Shown here piece after piece: positions 27,497 through 36,683 of a stretch of DNA of 64,000 bases (positions are counted from its first letter, which is position 1; every line of letters starts with the position of its first letter). The DNA comes from Gemmatimonadota bacterium (GTDB lineage Bacteria > Gemmatimonadota > Gemmatimonadetes > Gemmatimonadales > GWC2-71-9): NCBI GenBank assembly GCA_039586895.1, contig JBDHJM010000002.1, forward strand, positions 4,473 through 68,472, written 5' to 3'. The position numbers and the translations under genes are program-made. The notes below the pieces were generated by a model. That model saw only the letters and a list, made by a program, of their open reading frames with translations, searched no databases and was not told the origin of the DNA.

Positions 27497-28693
27497 CTAT
27501 CGGGGCCGAGCCGCGAGCCAGCTCTCGGGATCCAGCGCGATCCCGCCCTGGCCTCGGATCTGGAACTCGATGTGGGGGCCTTCCTCGGAGCCGGTCCCGC
27601 CGGACTCGCCGATGACCTCGCCCGGATCGACCCACTGGCCCGCCTGCACCGTGAACCGGTTGAGGTAGAGGTAGAGGGTGTAGAATCCGCCGCCGTGGTC
27701 TATCAGCACGGACGGCCCGTAGGTGCTCATCAGGTTGGCGTACTCGACTGTGCCTCCCGCCACTGCCCGGACCGGGGTCCCGATGGGCACGGCGATACCC
27801 ACCCCGTGCCGCCTGATCCGGGTATCGTCGGGTCCGGCGGCGATCCCGAACCGGTAGATGACCCGGCCGGAGTCCACCGGCCACTCCAGGGCCCCCAGGT
27901 CTTCCTCGCCGATCGTGGCTGCCCCGGGCGCGCCCCGGGCCACGGCGCGGCGCCGCGCTTCCTCCAGCGTGGCGATGATGTCCACCAGGCGCTCTTCGTC
28001 CCGAGCCAGCGAGTCGAGCCGAGTGGCCGCCACCTGCTCGGAGGCCCGCGTGTCGCGCAGCGCGCGCTGGCGCCTCTGCTCCAGCGCCACGAAGCGGTTC
28101 AGCTCGTCCCCGCGCTCGTCGCGCCGCACCGACAGCTCGCTGTGGATCGCAACCAGGTGGGAGCGCTGCTCGCCCACGCGGTCGCGCAGCACCTCGACCT
28201 CGCCCACCAGGGCCCGGTCCTGGCGGCTCACCAGGTAGAGGTACTTGTAGCGGCTCACCAGGTCGCCGAAGCTCTCGGCGGCCAGCAGCACCTCGAAAAT
28301 CCACAGCGAGCCCCGTTTGTAGATCTCGACCAGCCGGGCGTCGAGCACCGCGCGCGTCTCGGCCAGTGCGTCCTGCGCCAGCATGAGGTCCAGGGTAACG
28401 GTGTCGAGCTGCGCGCTGAGCCCGACGATCTGGCGGTCCAGCTCGTTCACGATGCGCGAGGTGACGCTCTTCTGGCGCTCGATGTTGTCCAGCTCGCCCT
28501 CGATGGAGTGCATCCGCCCCCTGAGGCTCTGCAGCTGGGACTCAAGCTGCAGGCGCTCCTGCCGGATGCCCTCCAGCCGGTCCTGGTTCTCGCGGATCTG
28601 TCGGGTGATGTTGGGGCGCTGCTGTGCCGGGGCGGCGCGCCCCGCGGCGAGCAGCAGGAGGGTGAGGGTCAGCGCAGCGGGTACGGTCCTCAT
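27497..28693 (-). CDS. envC: EnvC-like murein hydrolase activator (coiled coil plus degenerate M23/LytM domain)
   Basis: The ATG at 28693 gives signal peptide MRTVPAALTLTLLLLAAGRAAPAQ. A long coiled coil follows. The C-terminal LytM domain has degraded metal ligands: HGVGIAV instead of HxxxD, and PHIEFQI instead of HxH. ATGA overlap with ftsX. Confidence 0.85.
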   Translation of the reverse strand: MRTVPAALTLTLLLLAAGRAAPAQQRPNITRQIRENQDRLEGIRQERLQLESQLQSLRGRMHSIEGELDNIERQKSVTSRIVNELDRQIVGLSAQLDTVTLDLMLAQDALAETRAVLDARLVEIYKRGSLWIFEVLLAAESFGDLVSRYKYLYLVSRQDRALVGEVEVLRDRVGEQRSHLVAIHSELSVRRDERGDELNRFVALEQRRQRALRDTRASEQVAATRLDSLARDEERLVDIIATLEEARRRAVARGAPGAATIGEEDLGALEWPVDSGRVIYRFGIAAGPDDTRIRRHGVGIAVPIGTPVRAVAGGTVEYANLMSTYGPSVLIDHGGGFYTLYLYLNRFTVQAGQWVDPGEVIGESGGTGSEEGPHIEFQIRGQGGIALDPESWLAARPR

Positions 28694-29547
28694 ACCCGGG
28701 GCAAGTGCCGGTTCACGCTCAGCGCGCTCGCCGCAAACCCCAGCACGGTGCCGAGCAATAAGAACAGCAGCGTCTGCTCGGCCGTGAAGAACGATGCCCG
28801 GAACAGCCCGCGGCTCACCAGGACGTAGGCCCCGTAGCACAGCGCCACGGCGAGCATACCCCCCATGGCTCCCTTGAGGGCTCCGTCTAGCAGGAACGGC
28901 CGCCGGATGAAGCCGTCGGTGGCTCCCACGAGGCGCATGATGTGGATCTCGCGGCTGCGCGCCAGCACGGTCATGCGGATCGTGGTGGCAATGATCATCA
29001 GGGCGGCCGCCGCGAAGCCGGCGCCTATCACCAGCCCCACGACACCCGCGATGTCCCGCAGGCGGTCCAGCTTCTCCACCCAGTCCCGGCCGTAGCGCAC
29101 GTCCTCCACGAAGCGGAATCCGCTGAGCCGCTCGGCCACCGCCCGCGCGCTGCGGCTGTCGCGGTGGCCCTCCCGCAGGCGGATCTCCAGGGATGCGGGG
29201 AGCGGGTTGGCCGTCAGGTCCTCGTATACGCCCTGGAACTCCACCAGCTCCCGGCGGGCGCGCTCCAGGGCCTGGTCCTCGGTCACGTAGTCGACCAGCT
29301 CCACCTCGGGGAAGGCCTGGATGTCGCCGATGGCCACCGTGACGACCTCCACCGGTGTGCCGCGCGTCAGGTACATCACGATCTCGACGCGTTCCTCGAT
29401 CTCGCCCAGAGTGCTGCGAAGGTTGACGGCCACCAGCCCGAACAGGCCGAACACGAACAGCGCGAAGCCAATGGTCGTGACGGCCAGCGCCGACAGAACC
29501 GGGGCCCGGCGGAACGAAAGCAGCGCTTCCCTCACTGTGAGGCGCAT
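28690..29547 (-). CDS. ftsX: Cell-division ABC transporter permease FtsX
   Basis: The ATG at 29547 lies 1 nt after the ftsE stop. Four TMs with a large first periplasmic loop. MRLVGAT.GFIR.PF motif. Confidence 0.9.
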   Translation of the reverse strand: MRLTVREALLSFRRAPVLSALAVTTIGFALFVFGLFGLVAVNLRSTLGEIEERVEIVMYLTRGTPVEVVTVAIGDIQAFPEVELVDYVTEDQALERARRELVEFQGVYEDLTANPLPASLEIRLREGHRDSRSARAVAERLSGFRFVEDVRYGRDWVEKLDRLRDIAGVVGLVIGAGFAAAALMIIATTIRMTVLARSREIHIMRLVGATDGFIRRPFLLDGALKGAMGGMLAVALCYGAYVLVSRGLFRASFFTAEQTLLFLLLGTVLGFAASALSVNRHLPRV

Positions 29548-29548
29548 G

Positions 29549-30241
29549 TCAGGCGGGCTCCCGGGCGGCGGGTTGGTCGTCCTTCGAATCGTAGACCACG
29601 GCGCCCTCCTGGAGCTCGACGGTGCGGCAGCTGGCCTGGCGCACCAGGTCGAGGTCGTGAGTGGCAAGCAGCACCGCCGTGCCCGTGGCGTTGATGTCCT
29701 TCAGCAGCTGGTACACGCCGCGCGTGGCGCGCTCGTCGAGGTTCCCGGTCGGCTCGTCCGCCAGCAGCACCAGCGGGTCGTTGACCAGGGCGCGCGCAAT
29801 CGCGACGCGCTGCTGCTCGCCGCCCGACAGCTCGTGCGGGTACGCGTTGGCCTTGGTGGCGAGGCCTACCTGGGTCAGCACGCGCATCACCTTGGGTCCT
29901 ATCACCGAGCGGCGGGTTCCGGTCACCTCCAGGGCGAAGGCCACGTTCTCCTCTGCGGTCCGGTCCTCCAGCAGCCGGAAGTCCTGGAACACGATCCCCA
30001 GGCGCCGCCGCAGCCGCGGGATGTCGCGCCGCTTGAGGCTCGCGGTGGAGAAGCCCGAGACCCGCACGGTGCCGGAAGTCGGCAGGTCGTCGGCGTAGAT
30101 CAGGCGCAGCACGGTGGACTTGCCGGCGCCGGAGTGTCCGGTCAGAAAGACGAACTCTCCCTTGGCGACGTGGAGGGAGACGTCCTTCAGGGCCATCGAC
30201 CCCTTGGGGAATGCCTTGAAGACCTTGTTGAGGCGGATCAC
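29549..30241 (-). CDS. ftsE: Cell-division ATP-binding protein FtsE
   Basis: Motifs: GHSGAGKST, LSGGEQQRVAIARAL, LLADEPTGNLD. Confidence 0.93.
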   Translation of the reverse strand: MIRLNKVFKAFPKGSMALKDVSLHVAKGEFVFLTGHSGAGKSTVLRLIYADDLPTSGTVRVSGFSTASLKRRDIPRLRRRLGIVFQDFRLLEDRTAEENVAFALEVTGTRRSVIGPKVMRVLTQVGLATKANAYPHELSGGEQQRVAIARALVNDPLVLLADEPTGNLDERATRGVYQLLKDINATGTAVLLATHDLDLVRQASCRTVELQEGAVVYDSKDDQPAAREPA

Positions 30242-30243
30242 GG

Positions 30244-31401
30244 CTATAGCGTGCTGAAGGCTTCCTCGAAGTCGGCGATGATGTCCTCGACGTCCTCGAT
30301 GCCCAGGCTAACGCGGATGAATCCGTCGGGGATGCCCTGTGCGGCCCGCTCGCCCGGGCCGACCGCAGCGTGCGACGTGAAGCGGGGCTCCGACACCAGT
30401 GTCTCCACGCCTCCCAGGCTGGGGGCGTGAGTCGCCAGGCGGAGGCGCCGCAGCACCACGTCAGCGGCCGCCGCTCCGCCGTCCAGTACGAGGCCCACCA
30501 TCCCGCCGTAGCCGCCCAGCGTGCGGGTCGCGATCTCGTGGTCGGGGTGCGACTCGAGTCCCGGGTAGTGCACCTTGGTCACCGCCGCGTGACCGTCCGC
30601 CCACCGCGCGAAGGCGATGCCATTCTCGTTGTGGCGTGCGATCCGAACCGCGAGCGTCTTGATGCCGCGCTCGACCAGCCACGTGGCATGCGGATCGGGC
30701 GACTGCCCCCACACCTGCATGAGACGGCGCACCTCTTCGATTACCGGCTCGCTACCCGCCACCACGCCGCCGATGACGTCATCGTGGCCGTTTAGGTACT
30801 TGGTGGCGCTGTGGATCACCAGGTCGACCCCGTGCTCCAGCGGCCGGATGTTCACGGGCGACGCAAAGGTCGAATCCACGATCAGAGCGATGCCGCGGTC
30901 ACGGCAGAACTGGGCCATGGGCTGCAGGTCCAGCACCCGCATGAGCGGGTTGGTGGGGCTCTCCACGAAGATCGCGCGAGTGGTGTTGCGCACGTTGTGG
31001 CGCCAGTTGCGCTGGTTGTCGGGCGGGATCGCGGTGACCTCGATCCCCAGTTTGCCGAACTCTTCGGCGAACAGGCGCTGCGTGCCGCCGTAGATCCAGC
31101 TGCTGGCCAGCAGGTGGTCCCCGGGCCGCAGCATGGCTAGGTGGGCGAGCGCGGTCGCCCCCATTCCGCTGGCCAGGAAGATCGCAGCCTCGGCGCCCTC
31201 CAGGGCCGCCAGCTTCTCGGCCAGCCGCACCTGGTTGGGGTTGTTGCCGTAGCGCGTGTAGCGCACCTCCTCATCCGATCCCACCGGGTGAACGAAGGTG
31301 CTGCTCTGGTATATCGGCGTAGAGACCGGCTCGCGGTCGCCCGGAGTGTGGGGCGTTCCGTGGATGGCCCGCGTCGAGGGTCCGCCGGTGTAATCCGCCA
31401 T
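30244..31401 (-). CDS. PLP-dependent Cys/Met-metabolism enzyme (cystathionine gamma-synthase / beta-lyase / methionine gamma-lyase family)
   Basis: Family-wide pattern including the PLP-lysine motif HSATKYLNGHDDVIGG. The exact subfamily is not resolvable by eye. Confidence 0.88.
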   Translation of the reverse strand: MADYTGGPSTRAIHGTPHTPGDREPVSTPIYQSSTFVHPVGSDEEVRYTRYGNNPNQVRLAEKLAALEGAEAAIFLASGMGATALAHLAMLRPGDHLLASSWIYGGTQRLFAEEFGKLGIEVTAIPPDNQRNWRHNVRNTTRAIFVESPTNPLMRVLDLQPMAQFCRDRGIALIVDSTFASPVNIRPLEHGVDLVIHSATKYLNGHDDVIGGVVAGSEPVIEEVRRLMQVWGQSPDPHATWLVERGIKTLAVRIARHNENGIAFARWADGHAAVTKVHYPGLESHPDHEIATRTLGGYGGMVGLVLDGGAAAADVVLRRLRLATHAPSLGGVETLVSEPRFTSHAAVGPGERAAQGIPDGFIRVSLGIEDVEDIIADFEEAFSTL

Positions 31402-31940
31402 CAGGCGGTCACTGCCATGTAGCGGTTCGCGGCGTGGTGCACCAGCCGCTGCAGGCGCAGCGTCTCGAGCGCCGCCTGCGCCCGGTCGGGCGGCAGGGAC
31501 AGCTCGTCGGCCACCTCGTCGGTGCCGGCGGGCCCCCGCGCAGACAGCACCGTGAAGGCCCTGCGCGCCGTGTCGTCGACCGGGCCTAGGACCGTGATCT
31601 TGCCCTGCCGGTCGCGGGCCGCCACGGCGAGCCGGTGCCGCTCCAGCACGTGCTCGATGGCGTCACAATGGGAAGCCGTCACGCCCTGCAGCAGGAAGTA
31701 GCGGGCCTGGCCGTGGTGCAGCAGCAGCTTGCCCACGATCTCATCGGCGCAGGAAATGTCGAGGCAGCGCACCGCGCCGAAGTCGATCACCGCGGTGTGC
31801 CCTCCGTCCAGGTCGGCCAGCTCCCGCTCGATGCCGCCCCTCACGGCCTTGCCGGTAGGACGGGTCACGAGGTCTCCGTAGCCGCCGGAGACCGTGTCCT
31901 GGAGGATCACCTTCAGGTCGATGCGTCGCATACCCGTCAC
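31401..31940 (-). CDS. STAS-like (DUF4325-type) domain protein with C-terminal winged-helix DNA-binding-like domain
   Basis: N-terminal GDLVTRPTGKAVRGGIE....AVIDFGAVRCLDISCADEIVGKLL resembles the DUF4325/STAS-like fold signature. The C-terminal 60 aa (TDEVADELSLPPDRAQAALETLRLQRLV) looks like a wHTH. GTG at 31940 (GTGA overlap with upstream stop) or ATG at 31931. Confidence 0.6.
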   Translation of the reverse strand: MTGMRRIDLKVILQDTVSGGYGDLVTRPTGKAVRGGIERELADLDGGHTAVIDFGAVRCLDISCADEIVGKLLLHHGQARYFLLQGVTASHCDAIEHVLERHRLAVAARDRQGKITVLGPVDDTARRAFTVLSARGPAGTDEVADELSLPPDRAQAALETLRLQRLVHHAANRYMAVTA

Positions 31941-32830
31941 TCAGCCTGTTGCGCTGGTATGATCATGAGCAATTGGCTGCCGGGAAAGGCAGGCAGACCA
32001 TCGGTGAGCGGGTTGTCGTCGTCCCACGGCGGCACGATGGTGATGCGCGCGGTACCGCTGCGCATGCTCAGCTTGCCCTGCCACCGGTTGACGTACCGTG
32101 CGATTCCGCCCAATCCCTGCCCCCGTCCAGGATCCCGGAACCGGCTCGCGCCCTGGAACAGCGCCGCCTCCAATGCGGTGGCGTCATTCCAGCGGTCTCC
32201 GAACCGACTTGCCTGCGTGGCCTCCAGAGAGCGCCGGAATCCGACCCCCGCATCGGCCACCGCGATCACCACGACCCGCCGTCCGAGCCGCTTGCGCCAG
32301 TGGTATGCCTGGACCGCGACCCAGCCGGAGGTGCCGGCGTGCTCTACAATATTTTGACAGGCCTCTGAAAGCGCCATAGCGAAGCCCATCGTGGCCGTCG
32401 CCTCGAGGCCCAGCTCTCCCGAGAGAATCGCCGCCGAGCGCTCCTGAATCGTCTCCACCACGCTGTGCACGTCGTCGGTGCCGTGCACCGGAGTGATTTC
32501 CAGCAGCACGTCGGACGAATGGCTGGCGGCCACCCGCGGCACCTTGCCGTGCAGCTCGAACCACTCCTGAGCGTACTGGAAGAAGCCCGCCCGACCCCAG
32601 TAATGGGCCACGTCGCGGTCGGCCGGCACCGTGAGCAGCGGCCGCTCGGGCCCCCGCTCCAGGGCGGCCTGGCCGGCCGCCAGGAGGCCGAGCAGCCCGT
32701 AGGGCGAGGCCCACTGGGCGGCGTGCGCATCGAACAGGAGGCGCTTGTCGTCCGGCTCGCCGTATGCCCTGGCGAACTGGTCGAACGAGCGGTCGTCGAA
32801 GTGGGCCGGAACCTCGACCACACGAGTCAT
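31937..32830 (-). CDS. GHKL-superfamily (histidine-kinase-like / SpoIIAB-RsbW-like) ATPase with an N-terminal STAS-like extension
   Basis: The ATG at 32830 overlaps the PfkB stop (ATGA). N-box EACQNIVEHAG, G1 box VADAGVGF and G2 box GRGQGLGG. The N-terminal 100 aa (LLFDAHAAQWASPYGLLGLLAAG) are reminiscent of a STAS-type fold. The 290 aa listed upstream in the track ORF are antisense or Arg-rich shadow. Confidence 0.7.
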   Translation of the reverse strand: MTRVVEVPAHFDDRSFDQFARAYGEPDDKRLLFDAHAAQWASPYGLLGLLAAGQAALERGPERPLLTVPADRDVAHYWGRAGFFQYAQEWFELHGKVPRVAASHSSDVLLEITPVHGTDDVHSVVETIQERSAAILSGELGLEATATMGFAMALSEACQNIVEHAGTSGWVAVQAYHWRKRLGRRVVVIAVADAGVGFRRSLEATQASRFGDRWNDATALEAALFQGASRFRDPGRGQGLGGIARYVNRWQGKLSMRSGTARITIVPPWDDDNPLTDGLPAFPGSQLLMIIPAQQAE

Positions 32831-33777
32831 CGCGGCACGATCTCCCCGCGCAGGTGATAGTGCAAGTTCGTGGCGCCCCGGTACTGCACGTTGCGGGCGG
32901 CGGCGGAGCCCGCTGCGCGTACTGCCTGCTCCACTTCCGCACCCCTGACCAGCTGGGCGACAAGCGCGCCGCCGAACACGTCGCCGCATCCCGTCGGATC
33001 CAGCGCCTCGACCGCGTCGGCATCGATGCGGGCGGTGCGGATCGGCCTGGCGGCCGGCGGCCCCTGCGAGGGCCGCTCGAGAAAATCGAACGGCGGCACC
33101 GTAAAGTACACCGCCCCACGCTCGCCCAGGGTCACGACCAGCAGCCGGACTCCCAGCTCGAAGGCACGCGCCGCAACCGCGAGCGGGTCGCCTCCCAGTA
33201 GACCGAGCTCGTCCTCGTTGAGCTGTACTACGTCGAAGCACTCGAGCCACTCGCCCACGTCGGCCAGCTCCTCCGGCACGCGGCGGCCGTCGCCGGCGAC
33301 CCCGAGAAACAGGCTGTGCAGGTCGGCGAATATCGGCCCGCCGAAGCCGCGCCGCAGGTGCTGCACGGTGGCGAGGTCGGCCTCGAATCCCGAGATGAAG
33401 TTGAGGTACAGCGCATCGAGGTCCCGCACCATGGGTCCCAACTCGGGCCACTGCCACGCAGGCACACCGCCGCTCAGGTGCTCGGCCGTCCGCTTGAGGC
33501 CCTCGTAGCGCAGCGTCACTCTGTTGTTTGGCTCGGGCACCTCGATGAAGCGGGCCGCCGAGGAGCGCCGGGTCAGCGACTCGAGGAAGTGATTGGCCCG
33601 CGGCGCCAGGTCGCGGCCCACCTTGATCAGCGGCACCAGCTCCCAATCCGGCGGCAGGCTCGCCTCCAGGGCGGCCAAGGCGTATGCGATGCCCCCCCAT
33701 TCCTCGATTGGCGCGGGATCTGCGTCACGGTAGATCGTGTCCCACACCATCGTTCCGACGACGCCGAGACGCTTCAC
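32827..33777 (-). CDS. PfkB/ribokinase-family carbohydrate (or nucleoside) kinase
   Basis: The GTG at 33777 overlaps the ROK stop (GTGA). N-terminal GVVGTMVWDTI and C-terminal DPTGCGDVFGGA (the DTxGAGD equivalent). The ATG at 33750 is an alternative start. Confidence 0.78.
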   Translation of the reverse strand: MKRLGVVGTMVWDTIYRDADPAPIEEWGGIAYALAALEASLPPDWELVPLIKVGRDLAPRANHFLESLTRRSSAARFIEVPEPNNRVTLRYEGLKRTAEHLSGGVPAWQWPELGPMVRDLDALYLNFISGFEADLATVQHLRRGFGGPIFADLHSLFLGVAGDGRRVPEELADVGEWLECFDVVQLNEDELGLLGGDPLAVAARAFELGVRLLVVTLGERGAVYFTVPPFDFLERPSQGPPAARPIRTARIDADAVEALDPTGCGDVFGGALVAQLVRGAEVEQAVRAAGSAAARNVQYRGATNLHYHLRGEIVPR

Positions 33778-34766
33778 GCATCGCCCCAGGTCTGGACCTT
33801 GAACGACGCCACCGAGCCGTAGACGCCGGCGGTGCCCGTGAGCTCGCCGGGCACCACGCGGCACAGCTCGACGGCAGGCCGGAACGCCCGCAGCCGGACC
33901 TCCTTGCGCAGCGGGACGAACAGCCTGTCGCCCGCCGCTGTCACGCCGCCGCAGATCACCACTATCTCGGGATTGAAGATGTTGATGAGGTTCGCGATGC
34001 CGGTGCCCAGGAACCGGGCGGTGTCCTTGATGACCTCGAGAGCGTACTCGTCTCCGTGCGCCGCGGCGTCGTACACGGTCTGGGCCGTTATGTCGTCCAG
34101 CCGGCCGTTCACGAGGGCAGGCAGCTCGCTCTCGGAGTTGAGGCCGATTCCCTCCACGGCCCGCTCCGCGATTGCGCTTCCCGAAGCGTACGCCTCGAGG
34201 CAGCCGTAGTTGCCGCAGCGGCAGCGCCGCCCCGTGGAATCGATGCTCATGTGGCCCAGTTCACCGGCGATGTCGCCTGCACCGTGGAAGATCTCCCCGT
34301 CGAGGATGACTCCGCCGCCGATTCCCGTGCCGATCGTGAGCCCCACGGCCACCGAAGTGCCGCGCGCCGCCCCGCGCCACCACTCGCCGAACACGGCGCA
34401 GTTGGCATCGTTGTCGAGCGTTGCCGGGAGCTCCACCGCTTCGCTCACGCGCTCGCGCAGGGGATAATCCTCCCAGCCCAGGTTCGGGGTCATCAGCACA
34501 ACGCCGCGCTTGGTGTCGAGCGGTCCCGGCGAGCCGACGCCCACTCCCACCACTTCGAGGTCGTCCTCGGCGAGCGCTGCCGCGGTCTCCTCCAGGGAGC
34601 GCTCCACCATGGTCTTGATCTGGCCTACGACTGCGTCCGCTCCCTCGGCGACGAGGGTGCGCTGCTTCTGCAGCCCGTAGAGTGTGCTGCCGTCCTCAGG
34701 CACGGTCCCCACCACCACGTTCGTGCCGCCCACGTCCACGCCGACTATCAAGCGCCTGGTCGTCAT
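33774..34766 (-). CDS. ROK-family glucokinase
   Basis: Motifs: IVGVDVGGTNV, GIGGGVILDG, GHMSID..GR.C.CGN.GCLE.YAS. Confidence 0.9.
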   Translation of the reverse strand: MTTRRLIVGVDVGGTNVVVGTVPEDGSTLYGLQKQRTLVAEGADAVVGQIKTMVERSLEETAAALAEDDLEVVGVGVGSPGPLDTKRGVVLMTPNLGWEDYPLRERVSEAVELPATLDNDANCAVFGEWWRGAARGTSVAVGLTIGTGIGGGVILDGEIFHGAGDIAGELGHMSIDSTGRRCRCGNYGCLEAYASGSAIAERAVEGIGLNSESELPALVNGRLDDITAQTVYDAAAHGDEYALEVIKDTARFLGTGIANLINIFNPEIVVICGGVTAAGDRLFVPLRKEVRLRAFRPAVELCRVVPGELTGTAGVYGSVASFKVQTWGDA

Positions 34767-34770
34767 CGGA

Positions 34771-36570
34771 CTACTCCACGCGCAGCACGGCGAGGAAGGC
34801 CTCCTGCGGGATCTCCACGGTCCCCACCTGCTTCATGCGCTTCTTTCCTTCCTTCTGTTTCTCCAGCAGCTTGCGCTTCCGTGTCACGTCTCCGCCGTAG
34901 CACTTGGCGGTGACGTTCTTGCGCAGCGGACGCACCGTCTCCCGCGATATGACGCGGCTCCCGACCGAAGCCTGGATTATCACCTCGAACAGCTGGCGCG
35001 GGATCAGCTCCTTGAGCTTCTTCGCCACCTTACGGCCCCAGGCATATGCCTCGTCGGTGTGGATCACCACACTGAACGCGTCCACCGGGTCGCCGTTGAT
35101 GAGCATGTCCAGCTTGACCAGTTGGTTTGGCCGGTAGCCCAGGACCTCGTAGTCCATCGTCCCGTAGCCGCGGGTCACCGTCTTGAGGCGGTCGTAGAAG
35201 TCGAGGATTATCTCGGCGAGGGGGAACTCCCAGTCCAGCTCCACCCGGGTCGGATCCAGGTACTGCATCCCGAGGTACTCGCCGCGGCGCTCCTGGCCCA
35301 GCTGCATGATGGCTCCGATGTAGTCGGTCGGAGTCGTGATCCGGGCCTTGATGTAAGGCTCCTCCACGCGGTCCACCTTGGCACCCGTGGGCATCTTGGA
35401 CGGGTTCTCGACCACAGCCATCGAGCCGTCGGTGAAGTGCACGTGGTACTCCACGTTGGGCACCGTGGTGATCAGGTCGAGGTCCGACTCGCGCTCCAGC
35501 CGCTCCCGCACGATGTCCATGTGGAGCAGGCCGAGGAAGCCACAGCGGAACCCGAAGCCCAGCGCGACTGAGGTCTCCGGCTCGTAGTGCAGGGAACCGT
35601 CGTTGAGCTGCAGCTTCTCCAGCGCGTCCCTCAGCTCCTCGTACTGGTTCGCGTCCGTGGGGTAGAGCCCCGCGAACACCATCGAGTGGATGTCGCGGTA
35701 GCCCGGGAGCATCTCGCCGGCGGGGCGGCTCGCGTCCAGTACGGTGTCGCCGACGCGGGTCTCCTGCACGCCGCGGATGTTCGCCACCACGTAGCCCACC
35801 TCACCGGCCTCCAGGGCATCGGTGCGACGCTGGTCCAGCTGGAGGTACCCCACCTCGGCCACGTCGTAGTGGTCCTGCGGGTGGGAGCCGAAGGCGAGCT
35901 CCATGCCCGGCTCGATGCGGCCGTCCACCACCCGCACGCTGGGTATCGCTCCGCGGTAGCGGTCGTAGTAGGAGTCGAAGATCAGCGCACGCAGCGGCGC
36001 CTCGGGATCGCCGGAGGGCGGCGGCACCCGCTCCAGTATCGCTTCTAGCAGCTCGTGCACCCCCCGGCCTTCCTTGGCCGAGATCCGCAGGATCTCGTCC
36101 GGGTCGGTTCCCATCAGCTCCGCCAGCTCTGCGGCGCGGCGGTCGGGCTCCGCGGCGGGGAGGTCGGTCTTGTTGAGCACGGGGATGATCTCGAGGTTGG
36201 CGTCGAGCGCGAGCAGCAGGTTGCTCACGGTCTGGGCCTGCACGCCCTGGCTCGCGTCCACCACCAGGATCGCTCCCTCGCAGGCGTTCAGCGAGCGCGA
36301 CACCTCGTAAGTGAAGTCCACGTGCCCCGGCGTGTCGATCAGGTTGAGCTCGTAGGAGTCCTCTCCGTCGCGCACGTACTGCATGCGGACGGCATTCAGC
36401 TTGATCGTGATTCCGCGCTCGCGCTCGAGATCCATGGTGTCCAGGACCTGGGAGCGCATGCGGCGCTTCTCGAGCGTGCCGGTGGCCTCGATCAGGCGGT
36501 CGGCCAGCGTCGATTTGCCGTGGTCGATGTGTGCGACGATGCAGAAGTTGCGGATGTGGTCCTGGCGCAT
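34771..36570 (-). CDS. lepA: Elongation factor 4 (LepA)
   Basis: The ATG at 36570 gives [21 protein letters not shown]. The DTPGHVDF and NKTDL G-motifs are present. The C-terminus is LepA-specific ([23 protein letters not shown]). Confidence 0.97.
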
Positions 36571-36683
36571 CGGCCAAATATACACGGGGGTGCGCCTCTC
36601 TCCCCGGTGCCTCGCCGCCCCACGCGTCACGCTCTATGTTTGGCGCTCGTCGACCACCAACCGGCTAACAGCTGCGAGCGATC

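What the first reader, a model, noticed from the sequence alone, without database searches (positions are those of the whole stretch)
31401..32830. Embedded GHKL-ATPase plus STAS-like/winged-helix pair: a possible uncharacterised partner-switching switch
Two co-oriented genes are joined by a GTGA stop/start overlap. They are also welded to their neighbours, by ATGA upstream and TGATG downstream.

The first gene encodes a protein with all three GHKL ATP-binding boxes: EACQNIVEHAG, VADAGVGF and GRGQGLGG. It has no histidine-kinase dimerisation/phospho-acceptor domain. In its place is a ~100-aa N-terminal region that looks STAS-like (LLFDAHAAQWASPYGLLGLL).

The second gene encodes a DUF4325/STAS-like domain (AVIDFGAVRCLDISCADEIVGKLL) fused to a probable winged-helix domain.

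In established partner-switching systems (SpoIIAB/SpoIIAA, RsbW/RsbV) a GHKL Ser-kinase phosphorylates a STAS protein and sequesters a sigma factor. Here no sigma factor, PP2C partner or other regulatory gene is adjacent. The STAS-like protein itself carries the putative DNA-binding output. I do not recognise this architecture as a described system.

The context is a PfkB kinase and a ROK glucokinase upstream and a Cys/Met PLP enzyme downstream. This suggests an ATP- or metabolite-gated transcriptional switch, but a conflict/defence role cannot be excluded.
Basis: partly seen in the sequence, partly recalled or inferred. Interest (0 to 1): 0.7.

Follow-up and report, generated by a model that had tools for sequence, protein, structure and literature searches.

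The report
Core-genome CapK/CapS-like kinase–STAS switch
The two genes are distant relatives of the CapK kinase and its substrate CapS, a DNA-damage switch described in 2026 as a regulator of anti-phage operons. Here the pair is a conserved housekeeping pair in Gemmatimonadota, sitting between sugar-kinase and cell-division genes.

Summary
On the minus strand, a 297-aa protein (32830..31937) has an N-terminal STAS domain and a complete SpoIIAB/RsbW-type GHKL domain. It is followed by a 176-aa protein (31931..31401) with a STAS-like domain and a winged helix. The genes are tightly packed with their neighbours.

The architecture is no longer undescribed. Profiles of both proteins match CapK and CapS (Chambers et al., EMBO J 2026):
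- Kinase family vs CapK: hhalign probability 98%, E 1.5e-13.
- Partner family vs CapS: probability 97.5%, E 8.5e-12; vs CapS structure 9Z71, E 2.5e-9.
- The invariant Ser60 (LDISCADE) aligns with the CapS phospho-acceptor Ser54.
- Asn160 aligns with the CapK catalytic Asn218.

The differences matter:
- The kinase has no N-terminal HTH.
- There is no immune operon and no plasmid or phage homologue.
- PfkB–kinase–partner–(CGS)–FtsEX–M23 synteny holds across the 80 Gemmatimonadota species genomes inspected.
- The kinase is about as conserved as LepA and FtsE.

In Bacillota-labelled MAGs the same pair sits directly upstream of recA.

Most likely this is a Ser-phosphorylation switch acting on the STAS partner. 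Its signal and output are unknown. The Gemmatimonadota winged helix is acidic and variable, so DNA binding is doubtful. I class it as a new variant of a known kind, of moderate interest.

The parts
31937..32830 (-). CapK-like STAS-GHKL protein (297 aa), a putative Ser kinase. The ATG at 32830 overlaps the PfkB stop (ATGA).
   Evidence: hhalign of the family vs CapK gives probability 98.0 and E 1.5e-13 over CapK residues 67-362. hmmsearch gives E 1.8e-11 at PDB-sized Z.
32531..32830 (-). N-terminal STAS domain of the kinase (about residues 1-100). The canonical phospho-Ser position is occupied by Pro (ASPYG here, xDPYG in relatives), so it is not itself a canonical substrate.
   Evidence: Profile hit to STAS structure 4hyl at E 1.3e-5. 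STAS_2 is found in 12 of 25 members. Block-mean pLDDT is 70-90. RsbV and TM1442 are among the Foldseek hits.
32339..32365 (-). N box E156-H164 (EACQNIVEH). Asn160 aligns with the CapK catalytic Asn218.
   Evidence: Most of the box is invariant in 28 homologues. hhalign column mapping is. The N218A phenotype is reported in PMC13373217.
32240..32254 (-). G1 box D193-G197 (DAGVG).
   Evidence: D193, G195 and G197 are invariant in 28 homologues. G195 is also invariant across the diverse family.
32105..32134 (-). G2 box / ATP lid, D233-G242 (DPGRGQGLGG).
   Evidence: Invariant block. G237 and G239 are nearly invariant.
32276..32305 (-). Basic loop Y176-R185 (YHWRKRLGRR). It aligns with the CapK K237/K239 loop that lines the ssDNA-binding groove.
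   Evidence: hhalign mapping. W178 and R184 are invariant and R179 and R180 nearly invariant. The CapK ssDNA data are in PMC13373217.
31401..31931 (-). CapS-like partner (176 aa from the ATG; 179 aa if the GTG at 31940 is used): STAS-like domain plus winged helix. Its stop overlaps the CGS start (TGATG).
   Evidence: The profile hits the CapS crystal structures 9Z71 (E 2.5e-9) and 9Z72 (E 4e-4). hhalign vs CapS gives probability 97.5 and E 8.5e-12.
31752..31754 (-). Codon of Ser60 in the invariant D58-x-S60-x-A-D-E motif at the N-terminus of helix 59-73. It is the predicted phospho-acceptor, equivalent to CapS Ser54.
   Evidence: Invariant across Gemmatimonadota and the MAGs labelled Bacillota and Deltaproteobacteria. 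It aligns to the second Ser of CapS TDSSFPRE. The numbering was verified on the native CapS sequence.
31404..31583 (-). Winged-helix domain of the partner (about residues 117-176). The fold is confident, but the net charge is about -1 and the recognition helix is variable (P148-L160).
   Evidence: fold. (charge, missing CapS-like N-[TA]-[AS]-S-x-R-L motif, missing wing tail).
32827..33864 (-). Divergent PfkB/ribokinase-family kinase, the upstream neighbour in every Gemmatimonadota locus that includes that flank. The likely true start is near 33780.
   Evidence: Pfam PfkB at 3.6e-17. Best PDB relative is ribokinase at E 9e-7. Adjacent in 70 of 70 loci that include the flank, with a gap of -1 to 14 nt.
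30244..31401 (-). Cys/Met-metabolism PLP enzyme, a variable downstream neighbour that is absent in many related loci.
   Evidence: Pfam at 1.9e-121.
27497..30241 (-). ftsE-ftsX-M23 peptidase genes (EnvC-like is my reading of the M23 ORF). They are the conserved downstream neighbours of the pair throughout Gemmatimonadota.
   Evidence: ORFs. Synteny in 80 loci is. These genes were assigned from their translations and conserved order, not by a family scan.

Best explanation
The two genes encode a chromosomal, vertically inherited relative of the CapK/CapS kinase-substrate pair.

Proposed mechanism:
1. Gene 1 (STAS + SpoIIAB/RsbW-type GHKL domain) binds ATP.
2. When a ligand occupies the basic groove between its STAS and GHKL domains, it phosphorylates the invariant Ser60 at the start of helix alpha-2 in the STAS-like domain of gene 2.
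3. As in CapS, and in VapS, SpoIIAA and RsbV, the phosphate changes what the STAS surface can bind. For CapS this is its own dimer partner and therefore DNA. This switches the partner's output.

Basis of each step:
- Shown here: homology of both proteins to CapK and CapS, conserved catalytic and acceptor residues, conserved gene order, and phylum-wide synteny.
- Inferred by homology: kinase activity, Ser60 as the acceptor, and a switch in oligomer or partner binding.
- Unknown: the signal (ssDNA by analogy with CapK; a PfkB-linked metabolite is the alternative) and the output (transcription, possibly of the surrounding lepA...ftsEX-M23 gene string, or direct binding of a protein).
For: **Domain architecture**
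- STAS+GHKL and STAS+wHTH are confirmed.

**Homology to the characterised system**
- The partner-family profile hits CapS crystal structures 9Z71 (E 2.5e-9, nearly full length) and 9Z72 (E 4e-4).
- hhalign of the partner family vs CapS gives probability 97.5 and E 8.5e-12.
- hhalign of the kinase family vs CapK gives probability 98.0 and E 1.5e-13 over 265 columns covering STAS+GHKL.
- At equal database size, CapK scores E 1.8e-11. RsbW scores 0.14, and the best solved GHKL domains score about 0.01.
- CapK and this family hit the same region of one PADLOC model.

**Residue-level agreement**
- Ser60 aligns with CapS Ser54, and Asn160 with CapK Asn218. The basic loop 176-185 aligns with CapK K237/K239.
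- The experimental roles of these CapK and CapS residues are given in PMC13373217.

**Conservation and co-occurrence**
- The gene order is kinase then substrate, as in capK-capS.
- The pair is adjacent in 76 of 80 Gemmatimonadota loci. The other four are contig ends or a partial duplicate.
- The pair is also adjacent in six loci from Bacillota-labelled MAGs and lies 4.5 kb apart in a Deltaproteobacteria-labelled MAG.
- Purifying selection is strong. The kinase averages 79.7% identity, against 81.5% for LepA and 81.6% for FtsE.
Against: - No biochemistry exists for this family, and no complex model could be made.
- The CapK ssDNA-stacking Trp68 aligns with a variable position (His10). The neighbouring Phe11 is conserved only within the close Gemmatimonadales homologues.
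- The kinase lacks the CapK N-terminal HTH.
- There is no intergenic promoter or operator between or after the two genes in this window (0-5 nt spacers). No conserved palindrome was found upstream of the operon.
- The Gemmatimonadota winged helix is neutral to acidic (net -6 to +2) and is the least conserved part of the protein.
- It lacks the recognition-helix motif N-[TA]-[AS]-S-x-R-L and the C-terminal wing tail. CapS and the Bacillota- and Deltaproteobacteria-labelled partners share both. A repressor role for this particular protein is therefore uncertain.
- The AlphaFold model of the GHKL half is of low confidence (block-mean pLDDT about 42-68).
- Some STAS-GHKL family members have no CapS-like partner nearby.
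Confidence: 0.6

Rival explanations
1. Phospho-regulated protein inhibitor, following VapS-like logic. The kinase still phosphorylates Ser60. The partner, however, acts by binding and controlling a protein rather than DNA. Candidates are the translationally coupled PfkB-family kinase or the FtsEX/M23 division machinery. The winged helix would serve as a protein-interaction module.
For: - The winged helix is acidic or neutral, variable, and lacks the CapS-type recognition motif and wing tail.
- There is no room for an operator around the genes.
- PfkB-kinase-partner coupling holds in 70 of 70 loci, with stop/start overlaps.
- VapK/VapS in the same paper shows that this kinase-STAS module can gate a protein target.
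Against: - The winged-helix fold is intact and modelled with high confidence (block-mean pLDDT 90-98).
- The closest characterised homologue, CapS, is a DNA-binding repressor.
- Relatives in other phyla keep a basic, CapS-like recognition helix.
- No interaction data exist.
- PfkB is not linked to the pair outside Gemmatimonadota.
Confidence: 0.2
2. Metabolite-gated variant. The architecture is the same as in the best explanation. The kinase would be activated or inhibited by a phosphorylated sugar or nucleoside made by the adjacent PfkB and ROK kinases, or by the ATP/ADP ratio, rather than by ssDNA.
For: - ROK-PfkB-kinase-partner order is conserved across the phylum, with PfkB/kinase stop-start overlap.
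- The CapK ssDNA-stacking aromatic residue is not conserved.
- The basic groove could equally hold a phosphorylated small molecule.
Against: - Outside Gemmatimonadota the pair sits next to ligT/recA, mutS2 or priA instead of sugar kinases.
- The groove loop is polybasic (five Arg/Lys in ten residues), which fits a polyanion better than a sugar phosphate.
- The PfkB substrate is unknown.
Confidence: 0.15
3. Classical partner-switching anti-sigma module. The GHKL protein sequesters a sigma factor encoded elsewhere. The STAS partner is its antagonist, and a distant PP2C phosphatase resets the system.
For: - JGI annotates homologues as 'anti-sigma regulatory factor (Ser/Thr protein kinase)'.
- There are weak NCBIfam hits to RsbA (9e-4) and RsbW (0.016).
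- Foldseek hits include UsfX, RsbW and SpoIIAB complexes.
Against: - No sigma factor or PP2C phosphatase lies next to the pair in any of four independent genomic contexts.
- The kinase carries its own STAS domain, and the antagonist carries a winged helix. Neither feature occurs in RsbW/RsbV or SpoIIAB/SpoIIAA.
- The profile match to CapK is about ten orders of magnitude better than the match to RsbW.
Confidence: 0.05
4. A bona fide CapKS-type regulator of an anti-phage or stress island, that is, a conflict-system component.
For: - The published CapKS and VapKSC systems are mostly associated with immune operons.
- One distant family member lies next to an HD + PRTase-CE gene.
- There is a PADLOC DrmA-model hit.
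Against: - There are no defence genes around the pair in the window or in 80 related loci.
- Synteny with lepA, ftsEX and other housekeeping genes holds across a phylum.
- tblastn finds no hit for the kinase in 72,556 plasmids or 50,697 phage records, and none for the partner in the plasmids.
- The PADLOC hit covers only the shared STAS/GHKL region.
- No Gemmatimonadota entry appears in the supplementary files of the CapKS paper.
Confidence: 0.03

Closest known systems
CapK/CapS (Chambers, Rani, Min, Villa, Corbett; EMBO J 2026, PMC13373217; CapS structures 9Z71-9Z73)
   Same: - A two-gene module in the same order.
- The kinase has STAS + GHKL domains, and the substrate has STAS + winged helix.
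- Both proteins are profile-level homologues.
- The phospho-acceptor Ser on STAS helix alpha-2 and the catalytic Asn are conserved.
- The basic loop at the CapK ssDNA groove is retained.
   Different: - About 20% identity.
- The kinase has no N-terminal HTH.
- Trp68 is not conserved.
- The pair does not head an immune operon. It sits inside a long housekeeping gene string, with overlapping stop and start codons and no capS-type intergenic promoter.
- It is vertically conserved across a phylum and absent from the plasmid and phage records searched.
- The Gemmatimonadota winged helix is acidic or variable, and it lacks the CapS recognition motif and wing tail.
VapK/VapS/VapC (same paper)
   Same: - The kinase is STAS + GHKL without an HTH, as here.
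- The logic is the same: phosphorylation of a STAS Ser/Thr releases a bound target.
   Different: - VapS has only a short C-terminal helix rather than a winged helix.
- A VapC PIN toxin gene is a defining member of that system and is absent here.
- VapS (9Z7O) was not detected by the partner profile at E<=10.
SpoIIAB/SpoIIAA and RsbW/RsbV partner-switching modules
   Same: - A GHKL Ser kinase of the HATPase_c_2 type phosphorylates a Ser at the start of STAS helix alpha-2.
- The structural similarity is seen in Foldseek.
   Different: - Those systems have single-domain kinases and single-domain STAS proteins, a sigma-factor target and PP2C phosphatases. None of these is found here.
- Sequence similarity is only marginal (RsbW E 0.14 with the family profile).
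Pfam DUF4325 (STAS-like domain of unknown function)
   Same: - The partner's N-terminal domain matches the DUF4325 profile in 10 of 11 diverse members over the motif region.
   Different: - All matches are below Pfam's gathering score (best 19.5 bits vs 23; best E 7e-4).
- CapS itself gives no DUF4325 hit.
Csa3 (CARF + winged-helix CRISPR-associated regulator)
   Same: - It is the best whole-chain Foldseek hit of the partner model: a small alpha/beta sensor domain followed by a winged helix.
   Different: - TM-score is only about 0.3 with rmsd 12 Å, so the resemblance is one of domain order only.
- The N-terminal domain here is STAS-like, not CARF.

Membership tests
CapK/CapS | The kinase contains a STAS domain followed by a GHKL kinase domain. 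| tested here: met
   hhalign vs CapK residues 67-362 gives probability 98.0 and E 1.5e-13.
CapK/CapS | N-terminal HTH domain on the kinase. | tested here: not met
   The protein starts directly with the STAS domain, and the alignment to CapK begins at CapK residue 67. The paper reports that deleting the HTH had no effect on CapK function. VapK also lacks it.
CapK/CapS | The substrate is STAS + winged helix and is encoded immediately downstream of the kinase. | tested here: met
   Model with pLDDT 90.6. Foldseek hits to RsbS and MarR/ArsR. Profile hits to 9Z71 and 9Z72. hhalign probability 97.5. Adjacency is shown.
CapK/CapS | Absolutely conserved Ser on STAS helix alpha-2 (CapS Ser54). | tested here: met
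   Ser60 is invariant across Gemmatimonadota and the two MAG lineages. It aligns to CapS Ser54 and lies at the start of helix 59-73.
CapK/CapS | Catalytic Asn of the GHKL N box (CapK Asn218). | tested here: met
   Asn160 is invariant and aligned to Asn218.
CapK/CapS | ssDNA-sensing groove: aromatic Trp68 (Phe54 in VapK) plus Lys237 and Lys239. | tested here: inconclusive
   Trp68 aligns with the variable His10. The adjacent Phe11 is nearly invariant only among the 28 close homologues and is Leu elsewhere. The K237/K239 loop aligns with the conserved polybasic loop YHWRKRLGRR.
CapK/CapS | Located upstream of, and regulating, an immune or stress operon, with CapS operators in the capK-capS and capS-downstream intergenic regions. 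| tested here: not met
   There are no intergenic regions. The downstream genes are a Cys/Met PLP enzyme and ftsEX-M23. No defence-gene match was found apart from the shared-domain hit to the DrmA model.
CapK/CapS | DNA-binding recognition helix of CapS (QNASTRL region, Asn145). | tested here: not met
   The Gemmatimonadota partners have a variable, acidic or neutral helix (LPPDRAQAALETL...) and no wing tail. The Bacillota- and Deltaproteobacteria-labelled partners keep N-[TA]-[AS]-S-x-R-L and the GGxxFxY tail.
CapK/CapS | ATP- and ssDNA-dependent phosphorylation, dimer dissociation, and loss of DNA binding. | not testable with these tools
   This is biochemistry. The complex-prediction quota was also exhausted.
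RsbW/RsbV and SpoIIAB/SpoIIAA partner switch | Anti-sigma kinase of the HATPase_c_2 family. | tested here: inconclusive
   HATPase_c_2 scores 26.5 bits against a cut-off of 27.4. RsbW NCBIfam scores 14.6 bits against a cut-off of 145.
RsbW/RsbV and SpoIIAB/SpoIIAA partner switch | Cognate sigma factor and PP2C phosphatase in the module. | tested here: not met
   Neither is present within about 5 kb in the window or in any related locus.
VapKSC | VapC PIN-domain toxin gene following the STAS gene. | tested here: not met
   The downstream gene is a Cys/Met PLP enzyme or ftsE.
Pfam DUF4325 | Score at or above Pfam's gathering threshold (23 bits). | tested here: not met
   14.2 bits for the window protein. 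The best family member scores 19.5 bits.

The most novel reading that the evidence does not exclude
CapK/CapS-type modules may not only be accessory regulators of immune islands. They may also be ancient core-genome sensors of DNA damage (ssDNA). In Bacillota-labelled MAGs the pair would drive recA-recX from a partner-controlled promoter, giving a LexA-independent SOS-like circuit. In Gemmatimonadota a derived version would couple the same signal to the ftsEX-M23 division genes or to a PfkB-type kinase, giving a division or metabolic checkpoint.
Probability: 0.15. Interest if true: 0.8.

Novelty: new variant of a known kind. Interest (0 to 1): 0.55.

Why it matters
CapK/CapS was described in 2026 as a mobile regulator of anti-phage operons. 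This result shows that distant homologues of both proteins are single-copy, strongly conserved chromosomal genes across Gemmatimonadota. They also sit directly upstream of recA in Bacillota-labelled MAGs.

- It widens the known range of the kinase-STAS module from immune regulation to core physiology.
- It gives a testable function, with a candidate acceptor Ser60 and catalytic Asn160, to a gene pair annotated only as 'anti-sigma regulatory factor' and 'hypothetical protein' in hundreds of genomes.
- It suggests where to look for non-LexA DNA-damage circuits.
- It also shows a derived form whose winged helix may no longer bind DNA. That would illustrate how the output of this module gets rewired.

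Tried and rejected
- **Direct sequence searches of PDB** with either single protein found nothing. Only family profiles reached CapS.
- **Foldseek of the partner against PDB** did not list CapS. The library stops at April 2026, so structural superposition on 9Z71 could not be done.
- **The AlphaFold model of the kinase** is weak in the GHKL half, probably because the alignment was too shallow (75-89% identity). Its Foldseek hits are only suggestive.
- **Defence hypothesis.** PADLOC gives only a DrmA model hit, which CapK shares and which covers just the STAS/GHKL region. There are no plasmid or phage homologues. Rejected for this locus.
- **Operator search.**
  - No sigma-70-like promoter or convincing terminator lies inside the gene string.
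  - The lepA upstream regions of 8 genomes share only a TATATT box, with no palindrome.
  - The partner-CGS gaps of Gemmatimonadaceae show no shared inverted repeat. They contain at least one small ORF in L033.
- **PfkB as a universal partner** is rejected. It is absent from the loci outside Gemmatimonadota.
- **The 210-aa gene after the kinase homologue in L088** is a Zn-ribbon/TM protein, not a partner.
- **Literature searches** for DUF4325 and for STAS-like + GHKL gave nothing relevant.

Full report
**1. What is in the sequence**

The window has about 69% G+C. Its closest database matches are Gemmatimonadales metagenome genomes.

On the minus strand there is an uninterrupted co-directional gene string:
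- lepA (36630..34771)
- a ROK kinase (34766..33774)
- a divergent PfkB-family kinase (33864..32827)
- gene 1 (32830..31937)
- gene 2 (31931..31401)
- a Cys/Met-metabolism PLP enzyme (31401..30244)
- ftsE, ftsX and an M23 peptidase (30241..27497)

- ATGA joins PfkB and gene 1.
- TGATG joins gene 2 and the PLP enzyme.
- A GTG at 31940 overlaps the gene 1 stop as GTGA. However, the identical database protein and most homologues start at the ATG five nt after the stop.

**2. Domains**

Gene 1 (297 aa):
- It has an intact N box (EACQNIVEH), G1 box (DAGVG) and G2 box (DPGRGQGLGG). These are essentially invariant in 28 homologues.
- It reaches Pfam HATPase_c (1.6e-6) and nearly HATPase_c_2. It has no HisKA domain.
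- Its first ~100 residues are a genuine STAS domain. A profile of 25 diverse family members hits the STAS structure 4hyl (E 1.3e-5), and 12 of 25 members hit Pfam STAS_2.
- This part of the AlphaFold model has block-mean pLDDT 70-90. RsbV and TM1442 are among the whole-model Foldseek hits.
- At the canonical STAS phospho-Ser position this domain has Pro (ASPYG here, xDPYG in relatives), so it is not itself a standard substrate.

Gene 2 (176 aa):
- It models with pLDDT 90.6 as a STAS-like alpha/beta domain joined to a winged helix.
- The STAS-like domain matches RsbS 6jhk at probability 1.0. The winged helix matches MarR, ArsR and Z-alpha folds at rmsd 1-3 Å.
- DUF4325 is matched below threshold, but in 10 of 11 diverse members.

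**3. Distribution and context**

The best 80 are all Gemmatimonadota, including Gemmatimonas aurantiaca.

In those 80 loci:
- The kinase lies directly upstream of the partner in 76. The other four are contig ends or a partial duplicate.
- PfkB precedes the kinase in all 70 loci with enough flank, with a gap of -1 to 14 nt.
- The whole order lepA-(x)-ROK-PfkB-kinase-partner-(PLP enzyme, optional)-ftsE-ftsX-M23 is kept.

Within the Gemmatimonadales group the kinase averages 79.7% identity to the window protein. That is close to LepA (81.5%) and FtsE (81.6%), and above PfkB (67.7%) and the partner (62.3%).

tblastn found no hit for the kinase in 72,556 plasmids or 50,697 phage records, and none for the partner in the plasmids. 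This is the signature of a core gene, not of a mobile defence element.

An exhaustive profile search found 1675 representative proteins at E<=1e-3 and 126 at E<=1e-30. These include full-length STAS-GHKL proteins from MAGs labelled Bacillota and Deltaproteobacteria. Their contexts are as follows.
- **Six loci from Bacillota-labelled MAGs:** cinA-(DEAD helicase)-ligT-kinase-partner-recA-recX, followed by RNase Y where the contig extends that far. In most, an FtsH-type protease gene lies further upstream.
- **A Deltaproteobacteria-labelled MAG:** mutS2-DUF554-B3_4-kinase, with the partner 4.5 kb downstream.
- **Kinase homologues with no partner nearby:** next to a two-component system and priA, next to DUF4432, or next to an HD + PRTase-CE gene.

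The pair therefore co-occurs in Gemmatimonadota and in these two MAG lineages, while the flanking genes change. PfkB is a lineage-specific neighbour.

**4. Closest known system**

A literature search found Chambers et al., EMBO J 2026 (PMC13373217). The paper reports the following.
- CapK (HTH-STAS-GHKL) and CapS (STAS-wHTH) are encoded upstream of Bub, CBASS, Thoeris and other immune operons.
- CapS is a dimeric repressor.
- ssDNA-activated CapK phosphorylates CapS Ser54 on STAS helix alpha-2. This dissociates the dimer and de-represses transcription.
- A related VapK (STAS-GHKL without HTH) phosphorylates VapS to release a VapC toxin.

I tested homology rather than assuming it.
- The partner-family profile hits the CapS crystal sequences 9Z71 (E 2.5e-9, residues 23-170 of 184) and 9Z72 (E 4e-4). 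These rank ahead of all other PDB chains.
- I recovered native capK and capS from an Enterobacter roggenkampii plasmid, where they precede a Bub operon.
- hhalign gives probability 97.5 and E 8.5e-12 for partner vs CapS. It gives probability 98.0 and E 1.5e-13 for kinase family vs CapK, over 265 columns spanning CapK residues 67-362.
- At the same database size, CapK scores E 1.8e-11 against the kinase profile. RsbW scores 0.14, and the best solved GHKL domains score about 0.01.
- CapK and all tested family members also hit the same region of one PADLOC DrmA model.

Residue mapping:
- The invariant Ser60 of D-x-S-x-A-D-E aligns with the second Ser of CapS T-D-S-S-F-P-R-E. That residue is Ser54 in native numbering. 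The PDB index is offset by +2, which I checked on the native sequence and against Asn145.
- Asn160 aligns with the catalytic Asn218.
- The CapK K237/K239 loop of the ssDNA groove aligns with the conserved polybasic loop Y176-HWRKRLGR-R185.
- Trp68 aligns with the variable His10. Phe11 next to it is conserved only among the close Gemmatimonadales homologues.

**5. Mechanism: what is shown and what is inferred**

- **Shown:** architecture, homology of both proteins to CapK and CapS, conserved catalytic and acceptor residues, conserved gene order, strong purifying selection, and housekeeping synteny.
- **Inferred from the characterised homologues:** gene 1 is a Ser kinase, Ser60 is the acceptor, and phosphorylation changes what the STAS face of the partner binds.
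- **Not known:** the signal and the output.

Two things favour a nucleic-acid or other polyanionic signal. One is the polybasic groove loop. The other is the recurrent neighbourhood of recA, recX, mutS2 and priA in other lineages. The missing stacking aromatic residue and the PfkB/ROK coupling argue for caution.

**6. A caveat specific to this window**

The winged helix of the Gemmatimonadota partner differs from that of CapS and of the Bacillota- and Deltaproteobacteria-labelled partners. Those share a basic recognition helix with N-[TA]-[AS]-S-x-R-L, a GGxxFxY wing tail, and a net charge of +1 to +7.

The Gemmatimonadota domain has these properties:
- It is neutral to acidic (net -6 to +2; -1 in the window).
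- Its helix is variable (LPPDRAQAALETLRLQR).
- It ends without the wing tail.
- It is the least conserved part of the protein (57% vs 75% column identity).

In addition, the genes have no intergenic space for a capS-type promoter or operator. I found no conserved palindrome upstream of the operon.

The switch may therefore act on a protein here, following VapS-like logic. PfkB or the FtsEX/M23 machinery are obvious candidates. This is my main rival explanation.

**7. Other rivals**

- **A classical anti-sigma partner switch** is unlikely. No sigma factor or PP2C phosphatase is adjacent in four independent contexts, both proteins carry extra domains, and similarity to RsbW is far weaker than to CapK.
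- **A defence role** for this locus is very unlikely (section 3). The broader family does include at least one conflict-like context.

**8. Novelty**

The published CapKS and VapKSC censuses were BLAST-based and centred on immune operons. None of the 69 supplementary files mentions Gemmatimonadota.

The locus is therefore a new, divergent, core-genome variant of a very recently described kind. Its structural reading and its candidate Ser were correct.

The most novel reading still open is that such modules are ancestral DNA-damage sensors controlling recA or cell division independently of LexA.
- The Bacillota-type loci give a concrete lead. They have a 95-190 nt kinase-partner spacer.
- In three related genomes this spacer holds a 13-bp palindrome overlapping a -35-like TTGTCA/17/TAAGCT promoter.
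- recA follows 19-165 nt after the partner.
- None of the six loci contains an exact GAAC-N4-GTTC LexA box.

These are leads, not evidence of regulation.

Noticed in passing
L081:3806-3837, L092:5944-5975, L093:5913-5944 (loci from Bacillota-labelled MAGs): In loci with the order ligT-kinase-partner-recA-recX, the kinase-partner spacer holds a conserved 13-bp inverted repeat, ACAAGCCTCTTCC-N6-GGAAGRGGCTTGT. Its 3' arm overlaps a -35-like TTGTCA, with TAAGCT 17 nt downstream. It could be a partner operator, as at the capS promoter, or a terminator. recA starts 19-165 nt after the partner. No exact GAAC-N4-GTTC LexA box occurs in any of the six loci.
   Followed up: partly
window 36569-36590 (minus strand) and the equivalent sites in L001, L005, L008, L012, L013 and L031: A conserved TATATT box lies only 7-8 nt upstream of the lepA ATG (CCGTTATATTCTCCCCGATG in relatives, GTGTATATTTGGCCGATG in the window). 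It is positioned as a -10 element for a leaderless or near-leaderless transcript of the long lepA...M23 gene string.
   Followed up: no
PADLOC model PDLC02567 ('DrmA'), profile positions about 67-249: The window kinase, three distant family members and CapK itself all match the same N-terminal stretch of this 1750-position DISARM DrmA model (E from 8.5e-5 to 2.8e-12). Some DrmA helicases may therefore carry a CapK-like STAS-GHKL sensor module at their N-terminus.
   Followed up: partly
L007 (CP070716.1 1116246-1128767), 5719-7118: The same MAG chromosome that carries a complete locus (L004) has a second, partial copy. It comprises the last ~18 codons of the kinase, a full partner gene (69% identity) and the first half of the PLP enzyme. 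It is either a segmental duplication or an assembly artefact.
   Followed up: partly
L097:1888-6138 and L098:543-4793: A distant STAS-GHKL family member (P0255) has no CapS-like partner. It is followed by a 134-aa protein with no family hit and an 888-aa HD + PRTase-CE protein. I read this as a conflict-system-like context, which suggests the kinase module is reused with other outputs.
   Followed up: partly
window 30244-31401 and related loci (for example L015, L017, L024, L025, L036): The Cys/Met PLP enzyme between the partner and ftsE is present in the window but missing in many Gemmatimonadota loci, where the partner abuts ftsE. In Gemmatimonadaceae a gap of about 350-400 nt follows the partner. 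In L033 this gap encodes a small ORF of about 75 aa, MIWMRGDDAAHRMLVDGELVWVYGP....
   Followed up: partly
window 32827-33864: The PfkB-family kinase is very divergent. Only its C-terminal half aligns to ribokinases (best PDB E 9e-7; all NCBIfam scores are far below their cut-offs). It keeps the DPTGCGD anion-hole motif. Its ORF extends about 90 nt into the ROK gene, so the true start is probably near 33780 (VKRLGVVG...). Its substrate is unknown.
   Followed up: partly
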